IMG/VR virus record: IMGVR_UViG_3300009372_000131
Length of the DNA: 37,103 bases
From: a virus
Strand: one strand, 5' to 3'
A model generated the notes under the pieces. The model was not told where the DNA came from. It saw only the letters and a program-made list of their open reading frames with translations, and did no database searches. Within the stretch, counting starts at the first letter, position 1, and every line of letters starts with the position of its first letter. The position numbers and the translations under genes are program-made. This document shows positions 1-37,103 of the stretch, piece after piece.

Positions 1-119
1 GCACCATCCACTGCTGTGATGGTGATGTTTAAGAACTTCTCGAAGAACCACTTCTCCTGGTCAATCAGTGTGATCTGAATAATAGCAGAGCTGTTGCCTT
101 GCCTAATCGTGAGCGGGCT
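1..119. repeat. Terminal overlap, copy 1: identical to 36985-37103. This is a circular-assembly overlap, not a biological terminal repeat.
   Basis: The window start (gcaccatccactgctgtgatgg...cgtgagcgggct) matches the window end over all 119 nt. The overlap lies inside an open reading frame. Confidence 0.95.
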
Positions 120-9373: not shown

Positions 9374-9864
9374 TTTAGGATGAATTCCAAGAAGGGTTTA
9401 CGGGCAACACCAAAGTGTGTATGCCGATGAATGAATATTGCGCCAATCGAACGCAGCCAACGGATAGATTCCCGATGGCGCTCATCGACACAATTTGTAA
9501 CGATCTGATAACCGTTGCACAGTTCAGACAGGTAGTCTTGAGAATGCCTGACAAAGTGCTTTCGGAAATGCCTGACCTCATCTGTGCCTAAGAGCCAGAT
9601 GCCCCCTGTCCCTGGCTCAGAAGGCATGTCAGCAATACCGAACATCAGCGCAGGCACTTGTTTGTAGAGCACGGTAAACGCAGCCTTTGACTGCTGCCTC
9701 GAGTGTTCCACTGCCTCCAGAGGACCCCAGCCATATGCAGCCTTGACCTCAATACAATCAGCTGCACGCAGATTCAGAGCAAGCTCAAGCGAGTCCTCTG
9801 CCCTCGCCGGCCTGATCTCTATATCGCGTATCTGGCGCTCTTTGAGTTGTACCTGGCTGTCCAC
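9349..9864 (-). CDS. gp13-like internal virion/assembly protein with an acetyltransferase-like fold (DUF2833-type)
   Basis: 171 aa between the tubular B and gp14-like genes. The pattern IRPARAED...LRAADCIE...PALMFG...GGIWLLGTDE...SIRWLRSIGA is as I recall for this family. GTG start at 9864 overlaps gp12 by 46 nt, and the start is uncertain. Confidence 0.4.
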   Translation of the reverse strand: MDSQVQLKERQIRDIEIRPARAEDSLELALNLRAADCIEVKAAYGWGPLEAVEHSRQQSKAAFTVLYKQVPALMFGIADMPSEPGTGGIWLLGTDEVRHFRKHFVRHSQDYLSELCNGYQIVTNCVDERHRESIRWLRSIGAIFIHRHTHFGVARKPFLEFILKCVEYPQS

Positions 9865-12800
9865 TCGATGCCTAGAATGTTAGAGGGGAGGGGCGAGTCG
9901 TTCTCAATACTGATCGTCAGGTCTTTTGCATTGCCTATTGCGCTGAATCTCTCGCGCCCACTACGCAGACCTATGTCCCCGCCTAGTACATTTGAAGTGA
10001 ACTGCTGTACTGTGGCAGCACGGTACTTAGGCTGCACACTGAGCTTGAAATAACCAGTCTCATCGAACAAGACAGTAGCGTGTCGCAGGTAATACTCTGC
10101 TGTTGCTACGATACCCTTGCGCCCCTGACGCCCTGAGTTCTCCTTGAGATTGATCTCAGAGAATTCGTATTTCATTGCATACTGTTCGCCTAGCCACAGA
10201 GGAGTCGTTGTCCAATCCCCGCGCAGCACAATGGTGTTTGTAGTCTTTGACTCTTGAGGTACAACTACGCCTCCAACCCTTGTGTAAGGTTCAGCAAGAT
10301 CGTTCTTAACGAGTTGAGCTCCCCAGACAGTTATCGACCTGATGGCAGTGCCTGAAGTAGGGCGCAAACTTATGCGTGCGCGATCAACCACATTAGCACC
10401 AGAAGGTGCGTAATAAGTGAGCGTTGCAGACACTCTCCACCAGTCACCATCTTGCAGGCTCGAGGTGATGCTTGACGCGCTATAGGCACCAAGCGGGCCC
10501 TGTGAGACTGAGGAGTCGTAGGTCACCAGGCCAGTCGATGTGTCTAAGGCGAAAGCTATCTGCTCCCAGGGGGAGACTGACGCGGGGTAGAGATCGAGCA
10601 CAAAGTGCATTGTGTCTTCTACCTGATCTTTCTTGACGAATATCGACCAGGTATAACTGTCGCCCACAACTGGAGCAATAGGATTAGCGCCCCCGCCAAC
10701 CGTTTGGGACAGGTCATGCGTTGAATCACCTAAGCCTGTCAGCGTGTCAGCAGTCAGTTCACCATCTGGGGCTGTGTGGGTGTTACGGCTAATGCTTATA
10801 TCCGCGCCACCACCAGGATTCAGCGTTGAACTGACCCAACCCCCGCCCTCGAATGCCTCAGTTCCACCCAGGAGGTTGAAGGGATCGTTTTTGCCATTCA
10901 GCGTGCGAGTGACAACCTGATACTCGGCGCTGTTGTCCAAATCGTAGGGAAGCGTCAGCGTTGTTTCATGATCGTCAGCAGAGTATGCGACAGAAGTCAA
11001 GTCTGCTTCAGTGATACGCCTATCTAGCGCTATCCTGTAGGTGCTGTCTGTGTCAGATTGCCCGCTTCCAAATGTGATTGATTCAAGAAAGAGCCCTTCT
11101 GTGCGCTTGACCGTGAGGTAGAGCACCTCTTCGATAAAGCCGGCCCCTATGATTTCTGAACCTGCTCCAAGCACAAACCGCTGCCAAGCTGATTGCAAGC
11201 GCTCACGGCCCTGCTGCAAGAACGAGAGCACATAGATCGCATTGGTGTCAGTTGTGCTTGTAGCGGCAAGTATAGACTCAGTCGTTGATCCTGTCAGCGC
11301 ACTGATAGCACCTGGCATGTATTGAGGGATGTGCTGCGTGGAGTCAATGATATTGACCTGGGTCCCATCTGTTGAGTTTGGGAACATCTCAAGTATGCGG
11401 CCAAACCCGTCCGTGCCGAATGGGAAGAAGATGCTGCTGCCTACCAGCACACCACCTACATCTGCGCTGTTCTCATACTCGGCGGCTGTGACAATGGTTG
11501 CCGTAGAGGGGGTGATCACAGACTGAGGTATTACAAACTGTGTCCTGTCACTGAACAAGTACAGCCGCTCGTTGAATGGGATTGCGTGATTCAGGAGCGA
11601 CACGCGGGTGTGCCCAACACCCAGATCTACAGGTTCAGAATCAGGCAGCGTGAGCACAGTGGTGCGCCAGAAATTCCCATAGAGTCCCGTCTCGCTCATG
11701 ATCACATTCTGATCAGCAAGGAATCCAAGACGATTTCCGTGGAAGAAGATGCCTTTTATCTGCTTCCCGACAAAGCTAGGGCTGGGGTTTGTTTCAGCGC
11801 TACCCGCGACGCGGTCTGTCCATTCAAAACTCGCGTATGACTCTGGGTTAGTTCCCGCTGCGAAGTAAGGATCACCCTCATTGAGTGCGCTGGGAAATGT
11901 ATCTGTTGCAATCTTACGCACCAGGACCAGCGGCATAGTCAGCGTGTCTAGCCCTTGTTCAATTCCAGGCTCAGGGGCCTCCTCCCAAACGCCAGGTCCG
12001 AAACTGCCTGTAACCTCAGCCGCAAACTTCAGGAAATAGTCATCCTGATTACTGGACTGGTCACCGTTGATACGGATGACATGACCGTCTTGGCAATTGA
12101 GCGGGAGGTCTGAGATCGAGCTGACGCTCTGCCAAACCCTTTTCAGGTAGGTGCTGCCTACTGAGTCCTCTACTTCAAGGAGGTCAATTGTCTCACCACT
12201 GGCAGGCTCAATCTTGACCGTTGATCCAATCGAAGACGCTGTCCAGTTAGTCAGTGCGCTGATTTCTGTTGCCAGCCTTGTCGCCAGGTCTGTGGTCTTT
12301 AATGATTGCTCCTCAGTAATCGTATCGTCTACAATCGTTCCCAGACTCCAGCTGCCCCCTGTTGGAGCCGCATCAATAGTAAAGCGCTGGTCAAGCCCAG
12401 GGTGATCGCATGTTATGTCGACCGCACCATTATGGTATTCAGCAGTGACACCCTGCACTGCACTGATGTTAGATGCCAATTGTATTTCGAATGGCCCTGT
12501 GGAGTAACTCAGACTCCAAGTGGTGCCCAGCACTGAACCAGACCAGGTGCCAACGGCAGTTACAATAGAGCTGATCCGCATGACCTCCTTTAAATTACCA
12601 GAAGTGTTATCTCCATCCCATGTGCTGAGTGATACCAGTTCGGGGGCTGCATCAGCAGAAGACTGCAGCCTCACCTTGTAGTCAACTTCATAAGCTGACT
12701 GCTGTACGAACAGGAACGCTGCTTCTTGCGCGTCAGGGTTTGTCTGCGTGTTGAGCTCAACAGTCTTGCTGCCGTTCGCTATGAAGGTGTAGTCAGCTAC

Positions 12801-13178
12801 AGTCACCGCATTGAAATCAGAGACAGGGTCAGCGCTTGCCAGGTACGCTAGATCTGCAGCGTCTGCTAGATTGCCGCTCGAGTCATACACACCTAACTCC
12901 ACACCAGTAGTCAGGTCGAAGACATTAAGCGCCTTGTCCCGCATGATCACCGCGTAGCGCTCGCCTACACCGCGGTCAATGATATGGACCTTTGCCAACC
13001 CCAGAGTTCCATCAATGATCTTAGCAATGTGCTCAGTGTGCGGTCGCTTGGTCAGGCCTTCAACAACTGAAGCTAAGGCATTGTCGGATACAGCGCACTG
13101 GTTGGGGAATCTGACAGATGTCGGTTGCTGACTCACTCCACCTAGAAGGCTAGGGACTGAGCTGGCAATGAGCGTCAT
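9819..13178 (-). CDS. Tail tubular protein B (gp12-like), enlarged to 1119 aa with an inserted lectin-like module
   Basis: The N-terminus SLLGGVSQQPTSVRFPNQ...EGLTKRP matches T7 gp12 (NLKGGISQQPDILRYPDQ...EGLQKRP). About 325 aa longer than T7 gp12. Confidence 0.9.
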   Translation of the reverse strand: MTLIASSVPSLLGGVSQQPTSVRFPNQCAVSDNALASVVEGLTKRPHTEHIAKIIDGTLGLAKVHIIDRGVGERYAVIMRDKALNVFDLTTGVELGVYDSSGNLADAADLAYLASADPVSDFNAVTVADYTFIANGSKTVELNTQTNPDAQEAAFLFVQQSAYEVDYKVRLQSSADAAPELVSLSTWDGDNTSGNLKEVMRISSIVTAVGTWSGSVLGTTWSLSYSTGPFEIQLASNISAVQGVTAEYHNGAVDITCDHPGLDQRFTIDAAPTGGSWSLGTIVDDTITEEQSLKTTDLATRLATEISALTNWTASSIGSTVKIEPASGETIDLLEVEDSVGSTYLKRVWQSVSSISDLPLNCQDGHVIRINGDQSSNQDDYFLKFAAEVTGSFGPGVWEEAPEPGIEQGLDTLTMPLVLVRKIATDTFPSALNEGDPYFAAGTNPESYASFEWTDRVAGSAETNPSPSFVGKQIKGIFFHGNRLGFLADQNVIMSETGLYGNFWRTTVLTLPDSEPVDLGVGHTRVSLLNHAIPFNERLYLFSDRTQFVIPQSVITPSTATIVTAAEYENSADVGGVLVGSSIFFPFGTDGFGRILEMFPNSTDGTQVNIIDSTQHIPQYMPGAISALTGSTTESILAATSTTDTNAIYVLSFLQQGRERLQSAWQRFVLGAGSEIIGAGFIEEVLYLTVKRTEGLFLESITFGSGQSDTDSTYRIALDRRITEADLTSVAYSADDHETTLTLPYDLDNSAEYQVVTRTLNGKNDPFNLLGGTEAFEGGGWVSSTLNPGGGADISISRNTHTAPDGELTADTLTGLGDSTHDLSQTVGGGANPIAPVVGDSYTWSIFVKKDQVEDTMHFVLDLYPASVSPWEQIAFALDTSTGLVTYDSSVSQGPLGAYSASSITSSLQDGDWWRVSATLTYYAPSGANVVDRARISLRPTSGTAIRSITVWGAQLVKNDLAEPYTRVGGVVVPQESKTTNTIVLRGDWTTTPLWLGEQYAMKYEFSEINLKENSGRQGRKGIVATAEYYLRHATVLFDETGYFKLSVQPKYRAATVQQFTSNVLGGDIGLRSGRERFSAIGNAKDLTISIENDSPLPSNILGIEWTARYNSKSARYAI

Positions 13179-13865: not shown

Positions 13866-14876
13866 TTAAGTGAACGCAACTTTGTTGAGTTCGATAGCGC
13901 AGTTCGCACGCAGGTAATGGTGGCCCACGCAGAACTTTGCAACAAGAAGAGTACCGAGGTTCTGCGGGATGTAATCAGCAGACACGGTCAAGTCTCGGAG
14001 CATGGCCGTTCCTACTGCCTGCTCATGGAAGACATAACCAGCAGTATCACCTGATACAGACGCATTGTAGTTGGTGTTCGTTCCAGTTTCCTGCCCGGTG
14101 CCGCCAGTGGTGGTTATGTGGTTAGACATGATCACCTTGATGCCTGCAATAGTGATCGGAGCGTTGCCGCCCTGAGTCACGCTTGCCATGCCACCGATCC
14201 GCGAGTCAACGGGGTTACCCCCTGCCGTAGGAGCAACTTGGAGCAAGTTGTAATACATCGCAGGAGTAACGATTGCCCAACGGCGGCCATCACTCGAATC
14301 AGGCACATTCATCGTGTCGAGCTTCTCAGCCGAATCGAAGAGCGCTGCAATCAGGGTAGCCCCATCGGTCAGCATACTGGAATGAGTCACCTGTTTGTCA
14401 GTGTTAGCAGTCAGTCCACCAAACTCACCAGCAACAGTTTCGGCTGCTCGAGCGCAAAGACCAACAGTCTTGATGACTTGTTGGTCAAATTTGGTGCTTA
14501 ATGCAAACCCCAGCTGGCGGCTATATTCCTGCCTTTCGCTCCAGTGGTTCTTCAGTTCCTGAATCTCAGGCACGAATGCACTTGAGGTCAAGATCGAGTC
14601 CATCGTGATGACGCGCTCGTTGTGCGGAATCTCGCTGAGATAAGTGCCGGCCAGCAAATTTTCGCCTTCAGAATGATACGAACTGGATGCCCGTCCCACA
14701 GCGGGGAAAGTTACGGACTTGCCTTGCGAGACCTGCTTTACCATGTGACGCTCTCGCATCACACTTGCTTCTTCAAAACTGGACAGGACCTCATTTCCGA
14801 AGACCTTGACAAAGAGGTCATCTGTTGTCCCCCCGACTGCGGTGCCTGGAGTGGTTAATCTTGTAATGTCAGTCAT
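13866..14876 (-). CDS. Major capsid protein (gp10-like)
   Basis: 336 aa. DDLFVKVFGNEVLSSFEEASVMRERHMV...GKSVTFP and NERVITMDSIL...YSRQLG parallel T7 gp10 (LALFLKVFGGEVLTAF...SRHMV...GKSAQFP; EKVITIDGLL...YTSQLG). AGGAG lies 7 nt upstream of the ATG. Confidence 0.95.
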   Translation of the reverse strand: MTDITRLTTPGTAVGGTTDDLFVKVFGNEVLSSFEEASVMRERHMVKQVSQGKSVTFPAVGRASSSYHSEGENLLAGTYLSEIPHNERVITMDSILTSSAFVPEIQELKNHWSERQEYSRQLGFALSTKFDQQVIKTVGLCARAAETVAGEFGGLTANTDKQVTHSSMLTDGATLIAALFDSAEKLDTMNVPDSSDGRRWAIVTPAMYYNLLQVAPTAGGNPVDSRIGGMASVTQGGNAPITIAGIKVIMSNHITTTGGTGQETGTNTNYNASVSGDTAGYVFHEQAVGTAMLRDLTVSADYIPQNLGTLLVAKFCVGHHYLRANCAIELNKVAFT

Positions 14877-14995
14877 TGCTGACTCCTGGTGCTATTGCAC
14901 CCCTGTGTGTGTAAATGAAAAGGACAGTTACCTTCTTCACTTGCGCCACAGGTTGCCCACCCGTAGATGGACCTGCCGTCAATGTAGACGGTGTT

Positions 14996-15280
14996 CTATT
15001 GCTCGACTTTAGCCGCTTGCTTTTTGCGGCGTGCGCTGCCGAATAGCGCTGTTGCTGCCCCGCCTGCAAGCAGTGCTGCTAGGGGGGAGATGCCATTCAA
15101 TGCTGAAGAGATCAGCGTGCCTAGACCATCAGCGTTGTCTGCGATGCTGTCGCCTACAGTTGTAGAAACGAGCTCACCTGTTGCCTGGTCAGCCACAGTC
15201 ACGGTTGTGCCTAGAAAGGGATCAAGCACAGAGCAACTGACGAATGCTAGGCATGCGATGACAATGAGGCTACTTCGCAC
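14996..15280 (-). CDS. Small lipoprotein-signal protein with a C-terminal transmembrane anchor (u-spanin-like topology)
   Basis: 94 aa, GTG start. N-terminal MRSSLIVIACLAFVSC with a lipobox-like FVSC. C-terminal hydrophobic ISPLAALLAGGAATALFG followed by RRKKQ. Confidence 0.45.
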   Translation of the reverse strand: MRSSLIVIACLAFVSCSVLDPFLGTTVTVADQATGELVSTTVGDSIADNADGLGTLISSALNGISPLAALLAGGAATALFGSARRKKQAAKVEQ

Positions 15281-15482
15281 GCTTCACCATTCCACGCGCA
15301 ACTGCGTAAGCGCCCATCGCTACACCCATGGAGACAATTGCCGCCATTTGCAGCTGCATGGGGTAGGACCCTGTGCAGATAGTTGTGACCAGAGTCAGCA
15401 TACCAGCGAGGGCGAGACCCTCAGAACTGGTGAGCAGGCTCCCAGTAGAAATCGGGCCGATTGTCAGAGGTTCTTTTTCCAT
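15270..15482 (-). CDS. Small two-TM membrane protein (class II holin/pinholin-like size and topology)
   Basis: ATG at 15482, 4 nt after the scaffold stop. 70 aa, MEKEPLTIGP..., with hydrophobic segments GLALAGMLTLVTTICTG and MAAIVSMGVAMGAYAVA and a basic C-terminus RGMVKRAK. The track ORF 15270..15608 extends further upstream into the scaffold gene. Confidence 0.5.
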   Translation of the reverse strand: MEKEPLTIGPISTGSLLTSSEGLALAGMLTLVTTICTGSYPMQLQMAAIVSMGVAMGAYAVARGMVKRAK

Positions 15483-15486
15483 GTGT

Positions 15487-16248
15487 TCACCCAAAGATGT
15501 TAGTGACTGCCAGTCGCCTTTCCACTTCCTTGCGGTAGGCTTCTGATGTTCTGTAGCGAGGATCCCGCATGGCTGCAGTGACCTGGCTGCGGTCCTCGAA
15601 TGGTGCAACCCCAGGGAACTGGGGCGCTTGCCCTGTGATCATTTCAGGATGGGCTGCAGTTGCCTGCTTGTATTGAGCATAGAGGCCCCTGATTGCCATC
15701 AGAGCCGCTGGAGCATCTCCTTGATCAACGACTCTGTTGTGCGCTTCCTGATCGGCCTGACTCATGGTCTTGCCTGCCCACTCCATCATTTGACTGTAAT
15801 TCTCCTCGCCGCCTACAGACTCATAGACCTCCCGCTCCTGTCCTTTGATGATGGCATCGAGGCCAGCCATGTATGTTTTGATCATGGGCTCAGGGATACC
15901 CAGATCTGTGATCGTCTTGAGCTGATCAGCGCTCACCTCACCAGTTTCCGTATAGGAAGCAGCAGCCTGATCCCAGAAGCCTTCAGGCACCAGAGAGTCC
16001 TCTGTAGGCGCTGTGGCCGGCGCAGGCTCTGGAGCGGGCTGTGCGCCCATCTTAGCCTCAAGCGCTGTGTACGCCTCAGCCAGGGCCTCTGCGCTCTGGA
16101 ACTTCTCTGGAAGCCACTCAGGGCGCTCTTCTGTGGCCCCATCAGCCGGCGCTGCCTCAAGGGACTCGAGATCTTGTTTACTGAAAGGCTCAACCTCTGC
16201 TGGGATCGGTGCCTGGAAAGTGTGTTGGCTATCTAGTGGGCTATCCAT
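15487..16248 (-). CDS. Scaffolding protein (gp9-like)
   Basis: 253 aa, acidic and Ala/Glu/Pro-rich, between portal and capsid. Confidence 0.7.
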   Translation of the reverse strand: MDSPLDSQHTFQAPIPAEVEPFSKQDLESLEAAPADGATEERPEWLPEKFQSAEALAEAYTALEAKMGAQPAPEPAPATAPTEDSLVPEGFWDQAAASYTETGEVSADQLKTITDLGIPEPMIKTYMAGLDAIIKGQEREVYESVGGEENYSQMMEWAGKTMSQADQEAHNRVVDQGDAPAALMAIRGLYAQYKQATAAHPEMITGQAPQFPGVAPFEDRSQVTAAMRDPRYRTSEAYRKEVERRLAVTNIFG

Positions 16249-18437: not shown

Positions 18438-19171
18438 AAGATCACCTCCTTCTTGCGACTGTTCCAGTCAGACTTGCGAAGGATCCGAGCGCACCTGGCC
18501 TGCACCAGAGCCTCCTGCTCCCCAAGCCCTGCTTTGTCATAGGCAGCGAGGACCGTAGCCCATGTTGCACCGTCCTCATCGAGCATACGCGCGGCACGGG
18601 TGTTCCCAATTTTAGGGCAGCCGCCATACCCGTCAGTTGTGTCGCCGGCCAGCGTCTGCTTGAGATGGTTGTAATCTGCCTGCTCGACAGTCACATCGTA
18701 CACCTCAGCGTCATCCTTCCATGGGTTGTAATGTAGCCCAGGAATGGTGTCCAGGTCCTTGTCGATGCTCACGATGATCTTCTCCCCCTTGATCCGCGGT
18801 GAGGTCTGGAGGATGCCCAGCACATCATCAGCTTCGAGTTTGGGCATGACCCTTGATCGATACACATCGAGCACATACTCGCGCACCTCTGCGTAGCACA
18901 GGGGCTTGCGCTTCTTCTTACGATGAGACTTGTAAGTGGAGAGGATACCCTTGCGGAAGTTCTCCTGATCAGATACGCACATCACCACATCTGTAGCCTC
19001 GAGTTCATCTTTCAACTCGCAGACCTCCAGGTCTAAACGCTCCTTAGCCTCGCCCCCTTCGCTGGTCAGCGTGAAGCGATCTGGTGCCCACTCCGTACAC
19101 ACCTCTACAGCTATGGAGTATTGGTAGATCAATACATCGGCGTCAATCAATAGGGTTCGTCTCTCGCTCAT
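18425..19171 (-). CDS. 5'-3' exonuclease (T7 gp6-like, FEN/PIN fold)
   Basis: 248 aa. LLIDADVLIYQ, EADDVLGIL, SIDKDLDTIPG, GDTTDGYGG and the C-terminal ARILRKSDWN...VILWTP parallel T7 gp6 (MDGDWLVFQ, EGDDVMGVI, SCDKDFKTIPN, GDITDGYSG, ARILRFNEYN...IYLWRP). Confidence 0.95.
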   Translation of the reverse strand: MSERRTLLIDADVLIYQYSIAVEVCTEWAPDRFTLTSEGGEAKERLDLEVCELKDELEATDVVMCVSDQENFRKGILSTYKSHRKKKRKPLCYAEVREYVLDVYRSRVMPKLEADDVLGILQTSPRIKGEKIIVSIDKDLDTIPGLHYNPWKDDAEVYDVTVEQADYNHLKQTLAGDTTDGYGGCPKIGNTRAARMLDEDGATWATVLAAYDKAGLGEQEALVQARCARILRKSDWNSRKKEVILWTP

Positions 19172-19676
19172 CTTCTGTGTTTCCCTCCTCAGGGTCGTAA
19201 CAAATCCGTTTCGCTGCTCGAAGTTCTTTGATCAATCTCTCCCGCCGAACAGAACGCGGTTGAGATTTGTAGATGTCTATCAGCAGCTGCGCTTGCTGCT
19301 GCTTCTCATGCAGATAGGGGAAGACGCGCAGACTAAAATCAACTGCTTCCTGCCCGTAGACTGCCCACTCGTATGCTGAACGCCAACTCTTCTTCTGCGA
19401 TGTCCTCGATGAGAGCATGCCCCCGTAGCGCTCCATCAGATTGAAGAGCACAAACGGGAATGTGCTCCAGACTACGACTTTGACCCCTCCGCTCGGAGAT
19501 GCGTACCAGCAACCTTCACCGTCTGCATATCCTGCAGCGTAGATCTCATATTCCCTAGTGCGTGTCGGCCCATGTATCTCCGATAGAGTAGTCGCCGGCC
19601 ATTGGGCACGGAAAGCACGCGGCTTCCGCTGAATTAGAAATTGCCTGCACTGCAGCTTGCGCCAGGTCTTGGGCAT
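19143..19676 (-). CDS. LAGLIDADG-type homing endonuclease (single-motif, I-CreI-like)
   Basis: 177 aa. The motif YAAGYADGEGCW (19503-19538) is followed by the typical ...YEWAVYGQEAVDFSLRVFPYLHEKQQQAQLL pattern. The only canonical start is the ATG at 19676 (GGAGG 12 nt upstream). It overlaps the DNA polymerase 3' end by 122 nt and the exonuclease start by 29 nt. Confidence 0.55.
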   Translation of the reverse strand: MPKTWRKLQCRQFLIQRKPRAFRAQWPATTLSEIHGPTRTREYEIYAAGYADGEGCWYASPSGGVKVVVWSTFPFVLFNLMERYGGMLSSRTSQKKSWRSAYEWAVYGQEAVDFSLRVFPYLHEKQQQAQLLIDIYKSQPRSVRRERLIKELRAAKRICYDPEEGNTEDERETNPID

Positions 19677-27779: not shown

Positions 27780-27995
27780 TCAGCGCACCCCCAGATCTGT
27801 CAGCTTGAGTCTGCCTGATTGAGATGTACGCATCTTGTGGTGATGCAGCTGCAGACCATCAGCGGTCAAGACAATCACTCCATCGATTCCTTCCCCAGGC
27901 TTAGGCACCTGGTGTGTGCGGTAGGAACGACAGGCAAGCGTGAGCAGACTCAAGCTCAGGGCTGTGAGGATCACAACCTTGCACGGTAATTTCAT
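27780..27995 (-). CDS. Small secreted protein/lipoprotein candidate
   Basis: 71 aa. The signal-like MKLPCKVVILTALSLSLLTLAC has Cys after the hydrophobic core. ATGA overlap with the upstream mini-ORF. The stop lies 3 nt before the methyltransferase GTG. Confidence 0.5.
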   Translation of the reverse strand: MKLPCKVVILTALSLSLLTLACRSYRTHQVPKPGEGIDGVIVLTADGLQLHHHKMRTSQSGRLKLTDLGVR

Positions 27996-32324: not shown

Positions 32325-32687
32325 TCAGCTCGAGGTGCAATCAGGTGGCTCATGCTGATCTCTGAATCGTGTGGATATTTCATGCTTTTCTTCGGGGTCA
32401 AATGCCTGAACCCAGCCTAGCGCCAGGTTGTAATTGTCTCTTACTATAAGTGTCAAGATCTGCTCTAAACAACGCACATCCTGCTCACTGAGCTTGATGC
32501 CTAGCATGTCATCTACAGCGTGCAGGAGCTCATGCAGCACGGTCAGCTGCAGTTCAGGGAACCTCAGTGTGCTGATATTGATGCTTTGCGTTTGAGGATC
32601 GTATGCCCCCCAGCCATCTAGATCAGGGTCATAGACCACCTTCAGCTGTTGCACGCCTACCTGGAGTGTACAGAGCGTGCGTTGCAT
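32325..32687 (-). CDS. Small HExxH-motif protein (putative zinc metallopeptidase, ImmA/IrrE- or SprT-like)
   Basis: 120 aa. LQLTVLHELLHAV contains HELLH. It is the first ORF after the repeat/promoter region. Confidence 0.45.
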   Translation of the reverse strand: MQRTLCTLQVGVQQLKVVYDPDLDGWGAYDPQTQSINISTLRFPELQLTVLHELLHAVDDMLGIKLSEQDVRCLEQILTLIVRDNYNLALGWVQAFDPEEKHEISTRFRDQHEPPDCTSS

Positions 32688-35436: not shown

Positions 35437-35655
35437 TTAAGTCAAAAGGTTGAAGATGAGGGCGATGCCACAAGAGCACGCGGCAGAGAGTCCGAGCACC
35501 CAGGACTTGCTTTTTTCAAGTTCTCGAATGCGCGTCTCATGACCACGAAATGCCCTGTTCAGGTTTGATGTCTGGGAGATGAGTGCGTCCACTTTCCCCT
35601 CGAGCCTACCAAGAAGGAAGTGCACATCATGGTCATCCCCAGCGCTAGGACTCAT
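35437..35655 (-). CDS. Small tail-anchored membrane protein, in the position of the T7 gp17.5 holin
   Basis: 72 aa. Coiled-coil-like LGRLEGKVDALISQTSNLNRAFRGHETRIRELEK, then the C-terminal TM WVLGLSAACSCGIALIFNLL. It lies between the fibre genes and terS. Confidence 0.45.
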   Translation of the reverse strand: MSPSAGDDHDVHFLLGRLEGKVDALISQTSNLNRAFRGHETRIRELEKSKSWVLGLSAACSCGIALIFNLLT

Positions 35656-37103
35656 GCGACAGTGATTGTGTGCGTGCCAGGTGCAGCAGTATTCAGTACT
35701 GCATTACCCCTGGGAGACCAATGAATGCCCGCCTTAGGCCAATGTGTAGTTGGCGCAGGAGGTGCTGTAGACGCGGTGAACTGCTGGAACTCAACGCTGT
35801 GCATCAGCACGCCTTCCTTGTTCTGTGCCATCTCCACAGGTGTACTGCCGTGAGTGGCTGAATCGTATGCGATGGGGTACTGAATAGGATTGACTGAGTC
35901 AGTTCCTTCAACCTCTGCCCCAATCCCATCCGAGTAGACGAAACTCGAGTCGATCTTGTGACAGTAATAGTACCCCACACCAAACGCATCTTCGAACACA
36001 CCGTAGGTGTCGTCATCATGCCCTGAGTGCTGCTCCCAAAACCAGTGCTTAACTCCTGACGAGTCGGGAAAGACGCTGACTGAAGCACCGTTCTTGGCAA
36101 CACCTGGCGTGAGCCCGGTAACATCAGTTGCAAATGTAGCACCGTGATTGCGGTCCTGCGTGCGTACACGCATCCCTACCCTATGCAGTGCAATGTTCCG
36201 ATTGAGCACCTCGTTCTCAGTCCAGTGAGCAATGCGGTAGACACTCCTTGACCATGCTTGCGTGATGTGGCCTGTGTCAGGCCCTCCACCCCAGACCACA
36301 TCGAAGCTCTGGCGAATATAAGGCAGCGCCCCAGCATCGGTGTAGTTGGCGTTGGGCGTGAACGCAGATAGGGCCGTTCCTGTGACGGGGTCAGTAGCTT
36401 TTGAATCTGTCGTATTCTGCGGCTCCGCAGTTCCAATAGGCAGTGACTTGTCATCCTGATCAACGCCGCCTAGCAATGTGTTCCTAGGGTCAGCCGGAAT
36501 GCGAGGCCAATCTGTTGTCAGAGGCCACCACTCTGTACCTGCACCCATTGTATCTGTGCTGTGACACCAGAGATTCTCGTCAGCGTGGACAGGCTTTGCG
36601 CCAGTCACCCAGGCTTGAGTGTCAGGATCCCAAAGCCTGTCAGAGTACGCTACCTGGTCGCTCTCATAGTCAGCGACAATAGTGCCTGATGTTCCTGAAG
36701 CCATGCTGCCGTCATGCTCAACGGTGAAATTGCGAGATTGCGTACCGGCCGCAAATACGAGAGAGCCCGACGCGGTGCCTGTGATCGCTGACGCTAGGTC
36801 CCCTTCAGCCTTCCAGTAGATCGTAGGCTCTTCGCCGGCCAGAGGTATGTAGCTGAGGTGGACCCCAACAACTTGAGCAGTTTCTGCAGCAACTGACCCT
36901 CCTGGTGTGCTGATGTCCACCAGAGGAGGATCTGTTGAAGGGATGATCACTACCTGGCAGTGATTTGTTGCTGCGCTCAAGACCGCACCATCCACTGCTG
37001 TGATGGTGATGTTTAAGAACTTCTCGAAGAACCACTTCTCCTGGTCAATCAGTGTGATCTGAATAATAGCAGAGCTGTTGCCTTGCCTAATCGTGAGCGG
37101 GCT
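35652..37103 (-). CDS. Tail fibre/tailspike-like protein 2, C-terminal part (continuation of 407..1 across the junction)
   Basis: The track ORF 35652..36995 stays open upstream to the window end. The translation across the junction is continuous (..ITAVDGAVLSAATNHCQVVII..). Confidence 0.75.
   Translation of the reverse strand, partial: SPLTIRQGNSSAIIQITLIDQEKWFFEKFLNITITAVDGAVLSAATNHCQVVIIPSTDPPLVDISTPGGSVAAETAQVVGVHLSYIPLAGEEPTIYWKAEGDLASAITGTASGSLVFAAGTQSRNFTVEHDGSMASGTSGTIVADYESDQVAYSDRLWDPDTQAWVTGAKPVHADENLWCHSTDTMGAGTEWWPLTTDWPRIPADPRNTLLGGVDQDDKSLPIGTAEPQNTTDSKATDPVTGTALSAFTPNANYTDAGALPYIRQSFDVVWGGGPDTGHITQAWSRSVYRIAHWTENEVLNRNIALHRVGMRVRTQDRNHGATFATDVTGLTPGVAKNGASVSVFPDSSGVKHWFWEQHSGHDDDTYGVFEDAFGVGYYYCHKIDSSFVYSDGIGAEVEGTDSVNPIQYPIAYDSATHGSTPVEMAQNKEGVLMHSVEFQQFTASTAPPAPTTHWPKAGIHWSPRGNAVLNTAAPGTHTITVA
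36985..37103. repeat. Terminal overlap, copy 2 (identical to 1-119)
   Basis: Direct comparison. Confidence 0.95.

What the first reader, a model, noticed from the sequence alone, without database searches (positions are those of the whole stretch)
14996..15482. Two small membrane proteins inserted between scaffold and capsid genes, in a genome with no recognisable endolysin
T7-like phages normally have nothing between the scaffold (gp9) and capsid (gp10) genes. Here a 70-aa protein with two hydrophobic helices and a basic C-terminus (pinholin-like format) starts 4 nt after the scaffold stop. It overlaps a 94-aa protein that combines an N-terminal lipoprotein-type signal (IACLAFVSC) with a C-terminal TM anchor followed by RRKKQ. 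That topology is known for unimolecular spanins. I could not recognise an amidase, lysozyme, transglycosylase or peptidase motif in the genome, including the gp15/gp16-like proteins. Lysis in this phage may rely on an unusual module expressed with the late structural genes, or these proteins do something else entirely in the envelope.
Basis: partly seen in the sequence, partly recalled or inferred. Interest (0 to 1): 0.6.

Follow-up and report, generated by a model that had tools for sequence, protein, structure and literature searches.

The report
Probable lysis gene pair, marine phage
Two tiny, tightly coupled membrane-protein genes between the scaffold and capsid genes of an uncultured marine T7-like phage belong to two unnamed families that always travel together; they most likely help burst the host cell, in a complete genome where no cell-wall-cutting enzyme can be recognised.

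Summary
On the minus strand, p70 (70 aa, 15482-15270) starts 4 nt after the scaffold stop. It overlaps by 11 nt a 94-aa gene, p94 (15280-14996).

Both are real genes under purifying selection. They belong to two unnamed families of about 45 and 51 clusters, found only in marine metagenomic phages. In every locus with enough flank, p70 sits directly upstream of p94 with overlapping stop and start.

p70 is a confident two-helix hairpin with a basic tail, which is the class II holin or pinholin format. Some relatives weakly match a holin PHROG. p94 has a lipobox whose Cys is the only invariant column, a short acidic exported part, a weakly hydrophobic Gly/Ala-rich C-terminal helix and RRKK. That is u-spanin architecture without u-spanin sequence homology.

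In one relative the pair lies, with three other membrane-protein families, between tail fibre and small terminase. That is T7's holin position. Cultured phage LUZ100 has spanin-like genes in the same scaffold-capsid gap.

The window is a closed 36,984-bp genome with no recognisable peptidoglycan hydrolase. Two phages with the same cassette do carry i-type lysozymes, so an endolysin-free mechanism is not established.

A lysis role is the best reading (about 0.5). It is untested.

The parts
15270..15482 (-). p70: a 70-aa two-helix membrane hairpin with a basic C-terminus. It is a candidate class II holin or pinholin-like protein. Its ATG lies 4 nt after the scaffold stop.
   Evidence: The ORF and sequence are. 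The AlphaFold2 model has helices 20-37 and 42-69 with mean pLDDT 83. The family has 45 clusters, with SEG, Y59, R63 and K67 invariant. 9 of 35 members weakly match phrog_1299 'holin'; the window copy does not.
14996..15280 (-). p94: a 94-aa protein with a lipoprotein signal (lipobox FVSC, Cys16), an acidic exported part of about 47 aa carrying the TVGDxIAD motif, a Gly/Ala-rich C-terminal hydrophobic helix and RRKKQ. This is u-spanin-like architecture. The GTG start overlaps the p70 stop by 11 nt.
   Evidence: The family has 51 clusters at 50% identity. Cys16 is the only invariant column. In 40 full-length members the lipobox always ends [GAS]-C, the +2 residue is never Asp, and there is no further Cys. 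The AlphaFold2 model is low confidence: a beta hairpin at 26-41, then helices 42-62 and 66-92.
35437..35655 (-). p79-type protein: 72 aa, an N-terminal coiled coil with a hydrophobic helix at the very C-terminus. It lies between the second tail-fibre gene and the small terminase, which is the position of T7 gp17.5. It belongs to a third family that co-occurs with p70 and p94.
   Evidence: The ORF is. It matches phrog_5225 (unknown function, E 2e-5). My own HMM finds it next to or near p70/p94 in G001, G002, G005, L022 and L027-L029.
14877..14995 (-). A 119-nt spacer between p94 and the capsid gene. It has a small hairpin and a block conserved with relative L001, and is probably a late regulatory or RNA-processing element in front of the capsid gene.
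   Evidence: It aligns with the p130-to-capsid spacer of L001. The hairpin is listed.
15487..16248 (-). Scaffold (T7 gp9-like) gene, the upstream flank.
   Evidence: Pfam PF05396, E 6e-10.
13866..14876 (-). Major capsid (T7 gp10-like) gene, the downstream flank. It is followed by a strong terminator-like hairpin at 13832-13799.
   Evidence: Pfam PF21703, E 5e-48.

Best explanation
p70 and p94 are the core of a mobile late-expressed lysis module of uncultured marine podophages.

Inferred mechanism, step by step:
1. p70 accumulates in the inner membrane as an N-in/C-in helical hairpin.
2. At a set time p70 collapses the membrane potential, which is holin or pinholin-like behaviour.
3. p94 is exported and lipidated at Cys16. 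It stays tied to the inner membrane by its weakly hydrophobic C-terminal helix.
4. After the wall is weakened, p94 links or disrupts the outer membrane, which is u-spanin-like behaviour.
5. The 72-aa tail-anchored protein at 35437-35655 probably belongs to the same system.

What is shown: gene reality, topology features, strict pairing and overlap, and genomic context in relatives. What is inferred: every functional step. The wall-degrading step in this particular phage is unidentified.
For: 1. Architecture. p70 is a confident two-helix hairpin with a basic tail. p94 has a lipobox with an invariant Cys, no further Cys, never Asp at +2, and a C-terminal hydrophobic helix followed by RRKK. These are the in-silico criteria used for u-spanins, including the absence of periplasmic Cys, in PMC6139136.
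2. Coupling. p70 is immediately upstream of p94 in every locus with enough flank, with 1-11 nt stop/start overlaps.
3. Position in relatives. In G001 (94% complete) the order is fibre, collar protein, p79, p70, p94, p140, p130, small terminase, large terminase. That places the cassette exactly where T7-like phages keep the holin.
4. Precedent for the site. Cultured phage LUZ100 has, between scaffold and capsid, a small TM protein, an unannotated ORF with an N-terminal TMD and a charged helix, and a lipoprotein.
5. Weak homology. 9 of 35 p70-family members hit one PHROG, phrog_1299 'holin' (best E 6e-4). No other PHROG is hit by more than one member.
6. No alternative spanin. The window has no other spanin candidate, and p94 is the only lipobox plus C-terminal TMD ORF.
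7. Late expression. The genes are translationally linked to the scaffold gene and lie upstream of the capsid terminator.
8. Endolysin partners. Cassette-bearing G002 and G005 encode Destabilase-type lysozymes, so the cassette can work with an ordinary endolysin.
Against: - There is no experimental datum for any member of these families.
- There is no significant sequence similarity to any known holin or spanin family for the window's own proteins.
- The exported part of p94 is only about 47 aa (family range 28-57). The low-confidence model folds it into a hairpin plus helix. It may be too short to bridge a periplasm of E. coli width, though SIO1 gp22, an accepted u-spanin candidate, has only 59 aa.
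- The C-terminal helix is marginally hydrophobic.
- Most relatives carry a second lipobox plus C-terminal TMD protein (p140) right after p94. A simple 'one u-spanin' model does not predict this.
- No endolysin is recognisable in the window or in G001.
- The host is unknown.
Confidence: 0.5

Rival explanations
1. The pair acts in the envelope but not in lysis. One possibility is exclusion of superinfecting phage or masking of a receptor, so that progeny are not lost on cell debris, as with T5 Llp or T4 Imm/Sp. Another is a membrane tether that remodels the envelope during late infection.
For: These are small phage lipoproteins and small inner-membrane proteins, which is the usual format of exclusion systems (general knowledge). 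The phage is temperate-like, with an integrase. The exported part of p94 is short. The cassette moves between genomic sites like a moron.
Against: The genes are embedded in the late structural operon and overlap-coupled to it, not placed near the integrase or the early region. In G001 the cassette sits at the canonical holin site. A separate small lipoprotein ORF already lies in the early operon at 27780-27995. A lipid anchor plus a C-terminal TMD is not known for exclusion lipoproteins.
Confidence: 0.2
2. The pair controls lysis timing rather than outer-membrane disruption. p94 is an inner-membrane-stapled regulator (antiholin-like) of p70 or of the tail-anchored p79. Its Gly/Ala-rich helix behaves like a releasable SAR domain. 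The outer membrane is left to break passively.
For: Strict 1:1 coupling of p70 and p94. The p94 C-terminal helix and p70 helix 1 are both weakly hydrophobic and Gly/Ala/Thr-rich, like SAR domains. The exported domain is short. Many marine phages have no identifiable spanin (PMC6139136).
Against: The invariant lipobox and the absence of Asp at +2 argue for outer-membrane sorting under the E. coli rule. No antiholin with a lipid anchor is known to me.
Confidence: 0.15
3. The module lyses the cell without any phage endolysin. It would do so by depolarisation-triggered host autolysis, by blocking wall synthesis (amurin-like), or by direct fusion of the two membranes.
For: The closed window genome and the 94%-complete G001 have no recognisable peptidoglycan hydrolase. 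They also have no exported ORF of at least 80 aa other than the gp14-like protein and p94.
Against: G002 and G005 carry the same cassette together with Destabilase-type lysozymes. Absence rests on profile searches only. The long gp15, gp16 and nozzle proteins contain large unassigned regions that could hide a wall hydrolase.
Confidence: 0.1

Closest known systems
Unimolecular spanins: phage T1 gp11 (experimentally shown) and roseophage SIO1 gp22 / cobavirus spanins (predicted)
   Same: Both have an N-terminal lipoprotein signal with a lipobox Cys, a C-terminal transmembrane helix followed by basic residues, and no Cys in the exported part. Both are small proteins encoded among late or lysis genes (PMC6139136; PMC6775973; SIO1 gp22 read).
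   Different: There is no sequence similarity. The exported part is shorter: about 47 aa against 59 in SIO1 gp22 and about 90 in T1 gp11 (the T1 figure is from memory). The C-terminal helix is Gly/Ala-rich and only marginally hydrophobic, whereas that of SIO1 gp22 is strongly hydrophobic. p94 is always overlap-coupled to a two-helix protein and is usually followed by a second protein of the same architecture (p140). No endolysin gene is adjacent.
Class II holins and pinholins (phage 21 S21 68)
   Same: About 70 aa, two transmembrane helices with a short loop, and a charged C-terminal tail. The first helix is weakly hydrophobic (the S21 features are from general knowledge and PMC6139136).
   Different: There is no significant homology for the window copy; only 9 of 35 relatives weakly hit a holin PHROG. 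No SAR or signal-bearing endolysin is present in this genome.
Small genes between scaffold and capsid in Pseudomonas phage LUZ100 (gp37, an unannotated 78-aa ORF, gp38)
   Same: The genomic site is the same, in a T7-like phage with an integrase whose capsid is 37% identical. The set comprises a small TM protein followed by envelope-anchored proteins, including a lipoprotein.
   Different: LUZ100 has a two-component layout: an ORF with an N-terminal TMD and a charged helix overlapping a 63-aa lipoprotein that contains Cys residues. The families are unrelated. LUZ100 also has a T7-type amidase and a gp17.5-type holin. Its authors reported no spanins (PMC10134795), so these too are predictions.
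T7 lysis genes 17.5 (holin) and 18.5/18.7 (spanins)
   Same: They are late class III genes. In relative G001 the whole cassette occupies the fibre-to-terminase interval where T7 has gene 17.5.
   Different: The families and architectures differ. In the window only the 72-aa p79-type gene remains at that site, and the p70-p94 pair lies between genes 9 and 10.

Membership tests
Unimolecular spanin (u-spanin, T1 gp11 type) | N-terminal lipoprotein signal peptide with a lipobox Cys | tested here: met
   FVSC with Cys16 passes the PROSITE-type rule. The Cys is the only invariant column in 35 sequences. All 40 full-length members have [GAS]-C.
Unimolecular spanin (u-spanin, T1 gp11 type) | C-terminal transmembrane domain anchoring the protein in the inner membrane | tested here: inconclusive
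   A hydrophobic stretch at 63-81 is followed by RRKK and is modelled as a helix. It is Gly/Ala-rich, with Kyte-Doolittle about 1.5 and a summed apparent insertion energy of about +4 kcal/mol, so it is marginal.
Unimolecular spanin (u-spanin, T1 gp11 type) | No Cys in the periplasmic domain, and an outer-membrane sorting signal (no Asp at +2) | tested here: met
   0 of 40 members have another Cys. The +2 residue is A, S, G, K, Q, E or V, never D. The published trait is in PMC6139136.
Unimolecular spanin (u-spanin, T1 gp11 type) | A periplasmic domain able to span the periplasm, predicted to be mainly beta | tested here: inconclusive
   The exported part is about 47 aa (family range 28-57). The low-confidence model gives one beta hairpin plus one helix. 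SIO1 gp22 has 59 aa. The host periplasm width is unknown.
Unimolecular spanin (u-spanin, T1 gp11 type) | Encoded within or beside a holin-endolysin cassette | tested here: inconclusive
   p94 is next to a holin-like gene everywhere, and at the T7 holin site in G001. No endolysin gene is adjacent in any locus.
Unimolecular spanin (u-spanin, T1 gp11 type) | Sequence homology to a catalogued u-spanin family | tested here: not met
   No match in GenBank phages or in Pfam, PHROGs or NCBIfam. One of 35 members hits the Rz-like spanin PHROG at E 0.04, which is noise.
Unimolecular spanin (u-spanin, T1 gp11 type) | Disrupts the outer membrane; complements a lambda Rz/Rz1 defect | not testable with these tools
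   A bench assay is needed.
Class II holin / pinholin | A small protein with two TMDs, N-in/C-in topology and a charged C-terminus | tested here: met
   Helices 20-37 and 42-69 with pLDDT 83. The C-terminal 15 residues have net charge +4, and the loop GSYPM/GDYSD is acidic in relatives.
Class II holin / pinholin | Homology to a known holin family | tested here: inconclusive
   9 of 35 family members hit phrog_1299 'holin' (best E 6e-4). The window copy has no hit.
Class II holin / pinholin | A partner endolysin (SAR or secreted for pinholins, cytoplasmic for canonical holins) | tested here: not met
   None is recognisable in the closed window genome. Relatives G002 and G005 do have Destabilase-type lysozymes.
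Class II holin / pinholin | Timed lethal membrane permeabilisation | not testable with these tools
   A bench assay is needed.
Two-component spanin (Rz/Rz1 type) | An i-spanin with an N-terminal TMD and a periplasmic coiled coil, paired with an o-spanin lipoprotein | tested here: not met
   p70 has no periplasmic domain; its loop is 4-5 residues. p94 carries its own TMD.
Superinfection-exclusion lipoproteins (T5 Llp, Cor type) | Early or lysogenic expression, and a soluble lipoprotein without a second membrane anchor | tested here: not met
   The genes are overlap-coupled to the late scaffold gene. p94 has a C-terminal hydrophobic helix.

The most novel reading that the evidence does not exclude
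A tailed dsDNA phage lyses its host without a dedicated endolysin. In this reading the p70/p94/p79 membrane proteins alone bring about wall failure and membrane rupture: a pinholin-like trigger, a lipid-anchored protein with a releasable Gly/Ala helix, and a tail-anchored coiled-coil protein. They would act by activating host autolysins or by blocking wall synthesis. Alternatively, p94-type proteins are a new, very short class of membrane-bridging fusogen.
Probability: 0.1. Interest if true: 0.85.

Novelty: new variant of a known kind. Interest (0 to 1): 0.5.

Why it matters
Spanins and holins are known to be very diverse. Many marine phages are still listed as having no identifiable outer-membrane-disruption genes (PMC6139136).

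This work defines a recurring, mobile set of up to five small membrane-protein families in uncultured ocean podophages. Its two-gene core is p70 and p94. It gives annotators a concrete candidate for the missing lysis genes, and a second example after LUZ100 of such genes lying between scaffold and capsid.

If p94 works as a spanin with only about 47 exported residues, it would constrain models of how unimolecular spanins bridge and fuse membranes.

If the window phage and G001 truly lack an endolysin, that would be an exception to the holin-endolysin rule for tailed phages.

Tried and rejected
**Searches that found nothing**
- BLAST of the region and of p70, p94, p140 and relatives against 50,697 GenBank phage records: no match.
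- Pfam, PHROGs and NCBIfam on p70 and p94: no family.
- ESM Atlas: only unnamed viral clusters, nothing usable.
- Host identification: no tRNA or Rfam hit near the integrase, and no prophage copy in GTDB species genomes with capsid or p94 patterns.
- The T7-like promoter motif noted by another reader is not repeated near the pair.
- PDB sequence searches of gp15, gp16, the second fibre, the GP88-like protein and the HExxH protein found no wall hydrolase. The HExxH protein weakly resembles IrrE.

**An error I made and corrected**
My longest-ORF gene picking put a wrong-frame ORF of G002 into the batch Pfam scan. That scan therefore missed the G002 lysozyme, which tblastn later revealed.

**Readings rejected**
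- The 170-aa plus-strand ORF as the real gene, because of the codon-position pattern.
- p70 as an i-spanin, because it has no periplasmic domain.
- The p94 C-terminus as a sortase or rhombosortase-type sorting signal, because 10-20 further residues follow the basic cluster.

Full report
**What is there**

The window is a T7-like podophage genome read on the minus strand. The gene order is integrase, C5 methylase, RNA polymerase, SSB, RusA, primase-helicase, DNA polymerase, HNH, exonuclease, portal, scaffold, capsid, tail tube A and B, gp13, gp14, gp15, gp16, fibre, second fibre, small and large terminase. The first and last 119 bases are identical, so this is a closed genome of 36,984 bp. The two open-ended ORFs at the ends are one 579-aa gene.

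Between the scaffold gene (15487-16248) and the capsid gene (13866-14876) lie two small genes:
- p70: ATG at 15482, 4 nt after the scaffold TGA; stop at 15270.
- p94: GTG at 15280, overlapping the p70 stop by 11 nt; stop at 14996.

A 119-nt spacer follows. A strong terminator-like hairpin lies only after the capsid gene. The pair is therefore part of the most strongly expressed late unit.

**Are they genes?**

Yes, on three grounds.
- The closest relative is an IMG/VR contig (L001) with 67% capsid identity. It has both genes in the same place, at 64% and 46-49% protein identity.
- Differences between the two phages fall mainly on third codon positions, with many synonymous codon changes. This also dismisses the long antisense ORF.
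- A profile search of 1.8 billion representative proteins found 51 clusters of the p94 family. A word-indexed profile search found 45 clusters of the p70 family. All are unnamed and come from marine metagenomes (TARA, IMG/VR, ENA). None is in the 50,697 GenBank phage records.

**Anatomy of p70**

p70 folds with high confidence (mean pLDDT 83) into a helical hairpin, residues 20-37 and 42-69. The loop is four to five residues and acidic in relatives. The C-terminal tail is basic. An SEG motif before helix 1 is invariant, as are Y59, R63 and K67. Both helices are only moderately hydrophobic and rich in Gly, Ala and Thr.

**Anatomy of p94**

- The protein starts MRSSLIVIACLAFVSC. The Cys is the only invariant column in a 35-sequence alignment.
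- All 40 full-length family members have [GAS]-Cys. The +2 residue is never Asp. There is no other Cys after the lipobox.
- The exported part is acidic and carries the conserved motifs TGE..E.TVGDxIAD and GNPxLG. It is about 47 residues long (family range 28-57).
- It ends in a Gly/Ala-rich hydrophobic stretch followed by ARRKKK and a short tail.
- The AlphaFold2 model is of low confidence (pLDDT 63). It shows a beta hairpin, a 20-residue helix and a long C-terminal helix.

**Context in relatives**

I built HMMs from the fetched loci and found five small membrane-protein families that travel together:
- p70.
- p94.
- p140: a second lipobox protein with a strongly hydrophobic C-terminal TMD and a basic tail.
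- p130: an N-terminal coiled coil plus two TMDs.
- p79: a coiled coil plus a TMD at the very C-terminus.

The window's 72-aa ORF at 35437-35655 is a p79 member. It sits between the second fibre and the small terminase. p70 is always directly followed by p94 with a 1-11 nt overlap.

| Phage or locus | Where the genes lie |
|---|---|
| Window, L033/L034, L036 | p70-p94 alone, between scaffold and capsid |
| L001, L015 | p70-p94-p140-p130, between scaffold and capsid |
| G002 (= L016) | p70-p94-p140-p130 between scaffold and capsid; p79 at the fibre-terminase site |
| G001 (37.6 kb, 94% complete) | p79-p70-p94-p140-p130 contiguous between fibre/collar and small terminase; scaffold and capsid adjacent |
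| G005 (52.7 kb, not T7-like) | the families scattered among tail-fibre genes |

The fibre-to-terminase interval is where T7 has its holin gene 17.5, and the T7 spanin genes lie just beyond it (general knowledge).

The window's spacer in front of the capsid gene aligns with the spacer that follows p130 in L001. The window may therefore have lost p140 and p130 by deletion.

**A cultured precedent for the site**

I checked this. The LUZ100 capsid is 37% identical to the window's. Between its scaffold gene gp36 and capsid gene gp41 there are three relevant ORFs:
- gp37, a 65-aa single-TMD protein.
- An unannotated 78-aa ORF with an N-terminal TMD and a charged helix.
- gp38, a 63-aa lipoprotein, overlapping the 78-aa ORF.

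The LUZ100 paper states that no spanins could be found (PMC10134795). Roseophage CRP-114, the best capsid match among cultured phages, has nothing in this gap and a lysozyme at the T7 gp3.5 position.

**Function**

The features used in the published spanin survey to call u-spanins are a lipobox, a C-terminal TMD and no periplasmic Cys (PMC6139136). p94 has all three. SIO1 gp22, the roseophage protein treated as a u-spanin in the cobavirus paper (PMC6775973), has a comparably short exported part of 59 aa.

p70 has the class II holin format. 9 of 35 family members weakly match one PHROG annotated as holin, and no other PHROG recurs. The window's own copy does not match.

Together with the late, overlap-coupled expression, the holin-site location in G001, and the lack of any other spanin candidate in the window, the best reading is a lysis module. 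In it, p70 would be the membrane trigger and p94 the outer-membrane step. I put this at about 0.5.

Weak points:
- No homology to characterised proteins.
- A short exported domain.
- A marginal C-terminal helix.
- The unexplained second u-spanin-like protein (p140) in most relatives.
- An unknown host.

**The endolysin question**

In the closed window genome, no gene-strand ORF scanned with Pfam or PHROGs shows a peptidoglycan hydrolase domain. NCBIfam scans of ten unexplained ORFs and PDB sequence searches of six proteins found none either. The portal, the tail-tube genes and a low-complexity 91-aa ORF were not put through Pfam or PHROGs. The position where CRP-114 and LUZ100 keep their amidase is empty. 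Apart from the gp14-like protein and p94, no ORF of at least 80 aa has an N-terminal hydrophobic segment.

G001 also shows nothing.

This is not a property of the cassette, however:
- G005 encodes a Destabilase-family (i-type) lysozyme with a lipoprotein signal.
- G002 encodes a 122-aa homologue right after its primase-helicase gene. I first missed this one because my ORF picking chose the wrong frame.

So the cassette can work with an ordinary muralytic enzyme. The window phage either has an unrecognised enzyme or has really lost it. Large parts of gp15, gp16 and the nozzle are unassigned and could hide one.

**Verdict**

- The pair is a new variant of a known kind: a holin-like protein plus a u-spanin-like protein, from new families, at an unusual but not unprecedented site, in a genome without a recognisable endolysin.
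- It is of moderate interest and directly testable at the bench.

Noticed in passing
window 1-119 and 36985-37103: The first and last 119 bases are identical. The contig is therefore a closed genome of 36,984 bp. The open-ended ORFs 3-407 and 35652-37103 (minus strand) join in frame into one 579-aa second tail-fibre or spike gene.
   Followed up: yes
window 27780-27995 (-): A 71-aa ORF with a good lipoprotein signal (LTLAC, Cys22) and no second anchor. It lies in the early operon between the 150-aa ORF and the methylase. It is a candidate exclusion or lysogenic-conversion lipoprotein with no family match.
   Followed up: partly
window 32325-32687 (-): A 120-aa protein with an HELLH motif, located after the large terminase. 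It weakly resembles IrrE/ImmA-type metalloproteases (PDB 3dte, E 0.14; phrog_1233). This would fit a temperate lifestyle rather than lysis.
   Followed up: partly
window 14877-14995 (-) and L001:5860-6000: A conserved block of about 60 nt (ACGGCAGG...GGCAACCTGTGGCG...GTAACTGTCC.TTTCA) lies just upstream of the capsid gene in both phages. The last codons of the window p94 align with the end of L001 p130. This suggests that a deletion removed p140 and p130 from the window lineage.
   Followed up: partly
L045 (LUZ100) 19039-19275 and 19190-19381: An unannotated 78-aa ORF with an N-terminal TMD and a charged helix overlaps the lipoprotein gene gp38, between scaffold and capsid. This is a likely spanin pair, which the LUZ100 paper says could not be found.
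   Followed up: partly
L039:4203-4571 (+) and L031:13036-13476 (-): Both are Destabilase-family (i-type) lysozymes in phages that carry the cassette. The G005 copy has a lipoprotein signal (LSSC). The G002 copy overlaps the end of the primase-helicase gene and is easily missed by longest-ORF gene calling.
   Followed up: yes
L012:3008-3199 and L045 (LUZ100) 18845-19042: A family of single-TMD proteins of about 63-65 aa with a TPTP(K/R)DD motif (phrog_9685). It occupies the same scaffold-capsid gap in other T7-like phages. The gap is a recurrent landing site for small membrane-protein genes.
   Followed up: no
window 9819-13178 (-): The 1119-aa nozzle (tail tube B) is closest to the solved nozzle of Prochlorococcus cyanophage P-SCSP1u (E 5e-99). 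It carries about 290 extra N-terminal residues that do not match any solved nozzle.
   Followed up: no
L016:5312-5746, L023:3686-4123, L030:7478-7888: The p140 family has a lipobox (LGGC or LTGC), the conserved motifs PDE(L/F)T(I/V)GHG and ESTYAALTW, an R.ERR.LRE helix, and a strongly hydrophobic C-terminal TMD with a basic tail. It is a second, longer u-spanin-like protein that follows p94 in most relatives and is absent from the window.
   Followed up: partly
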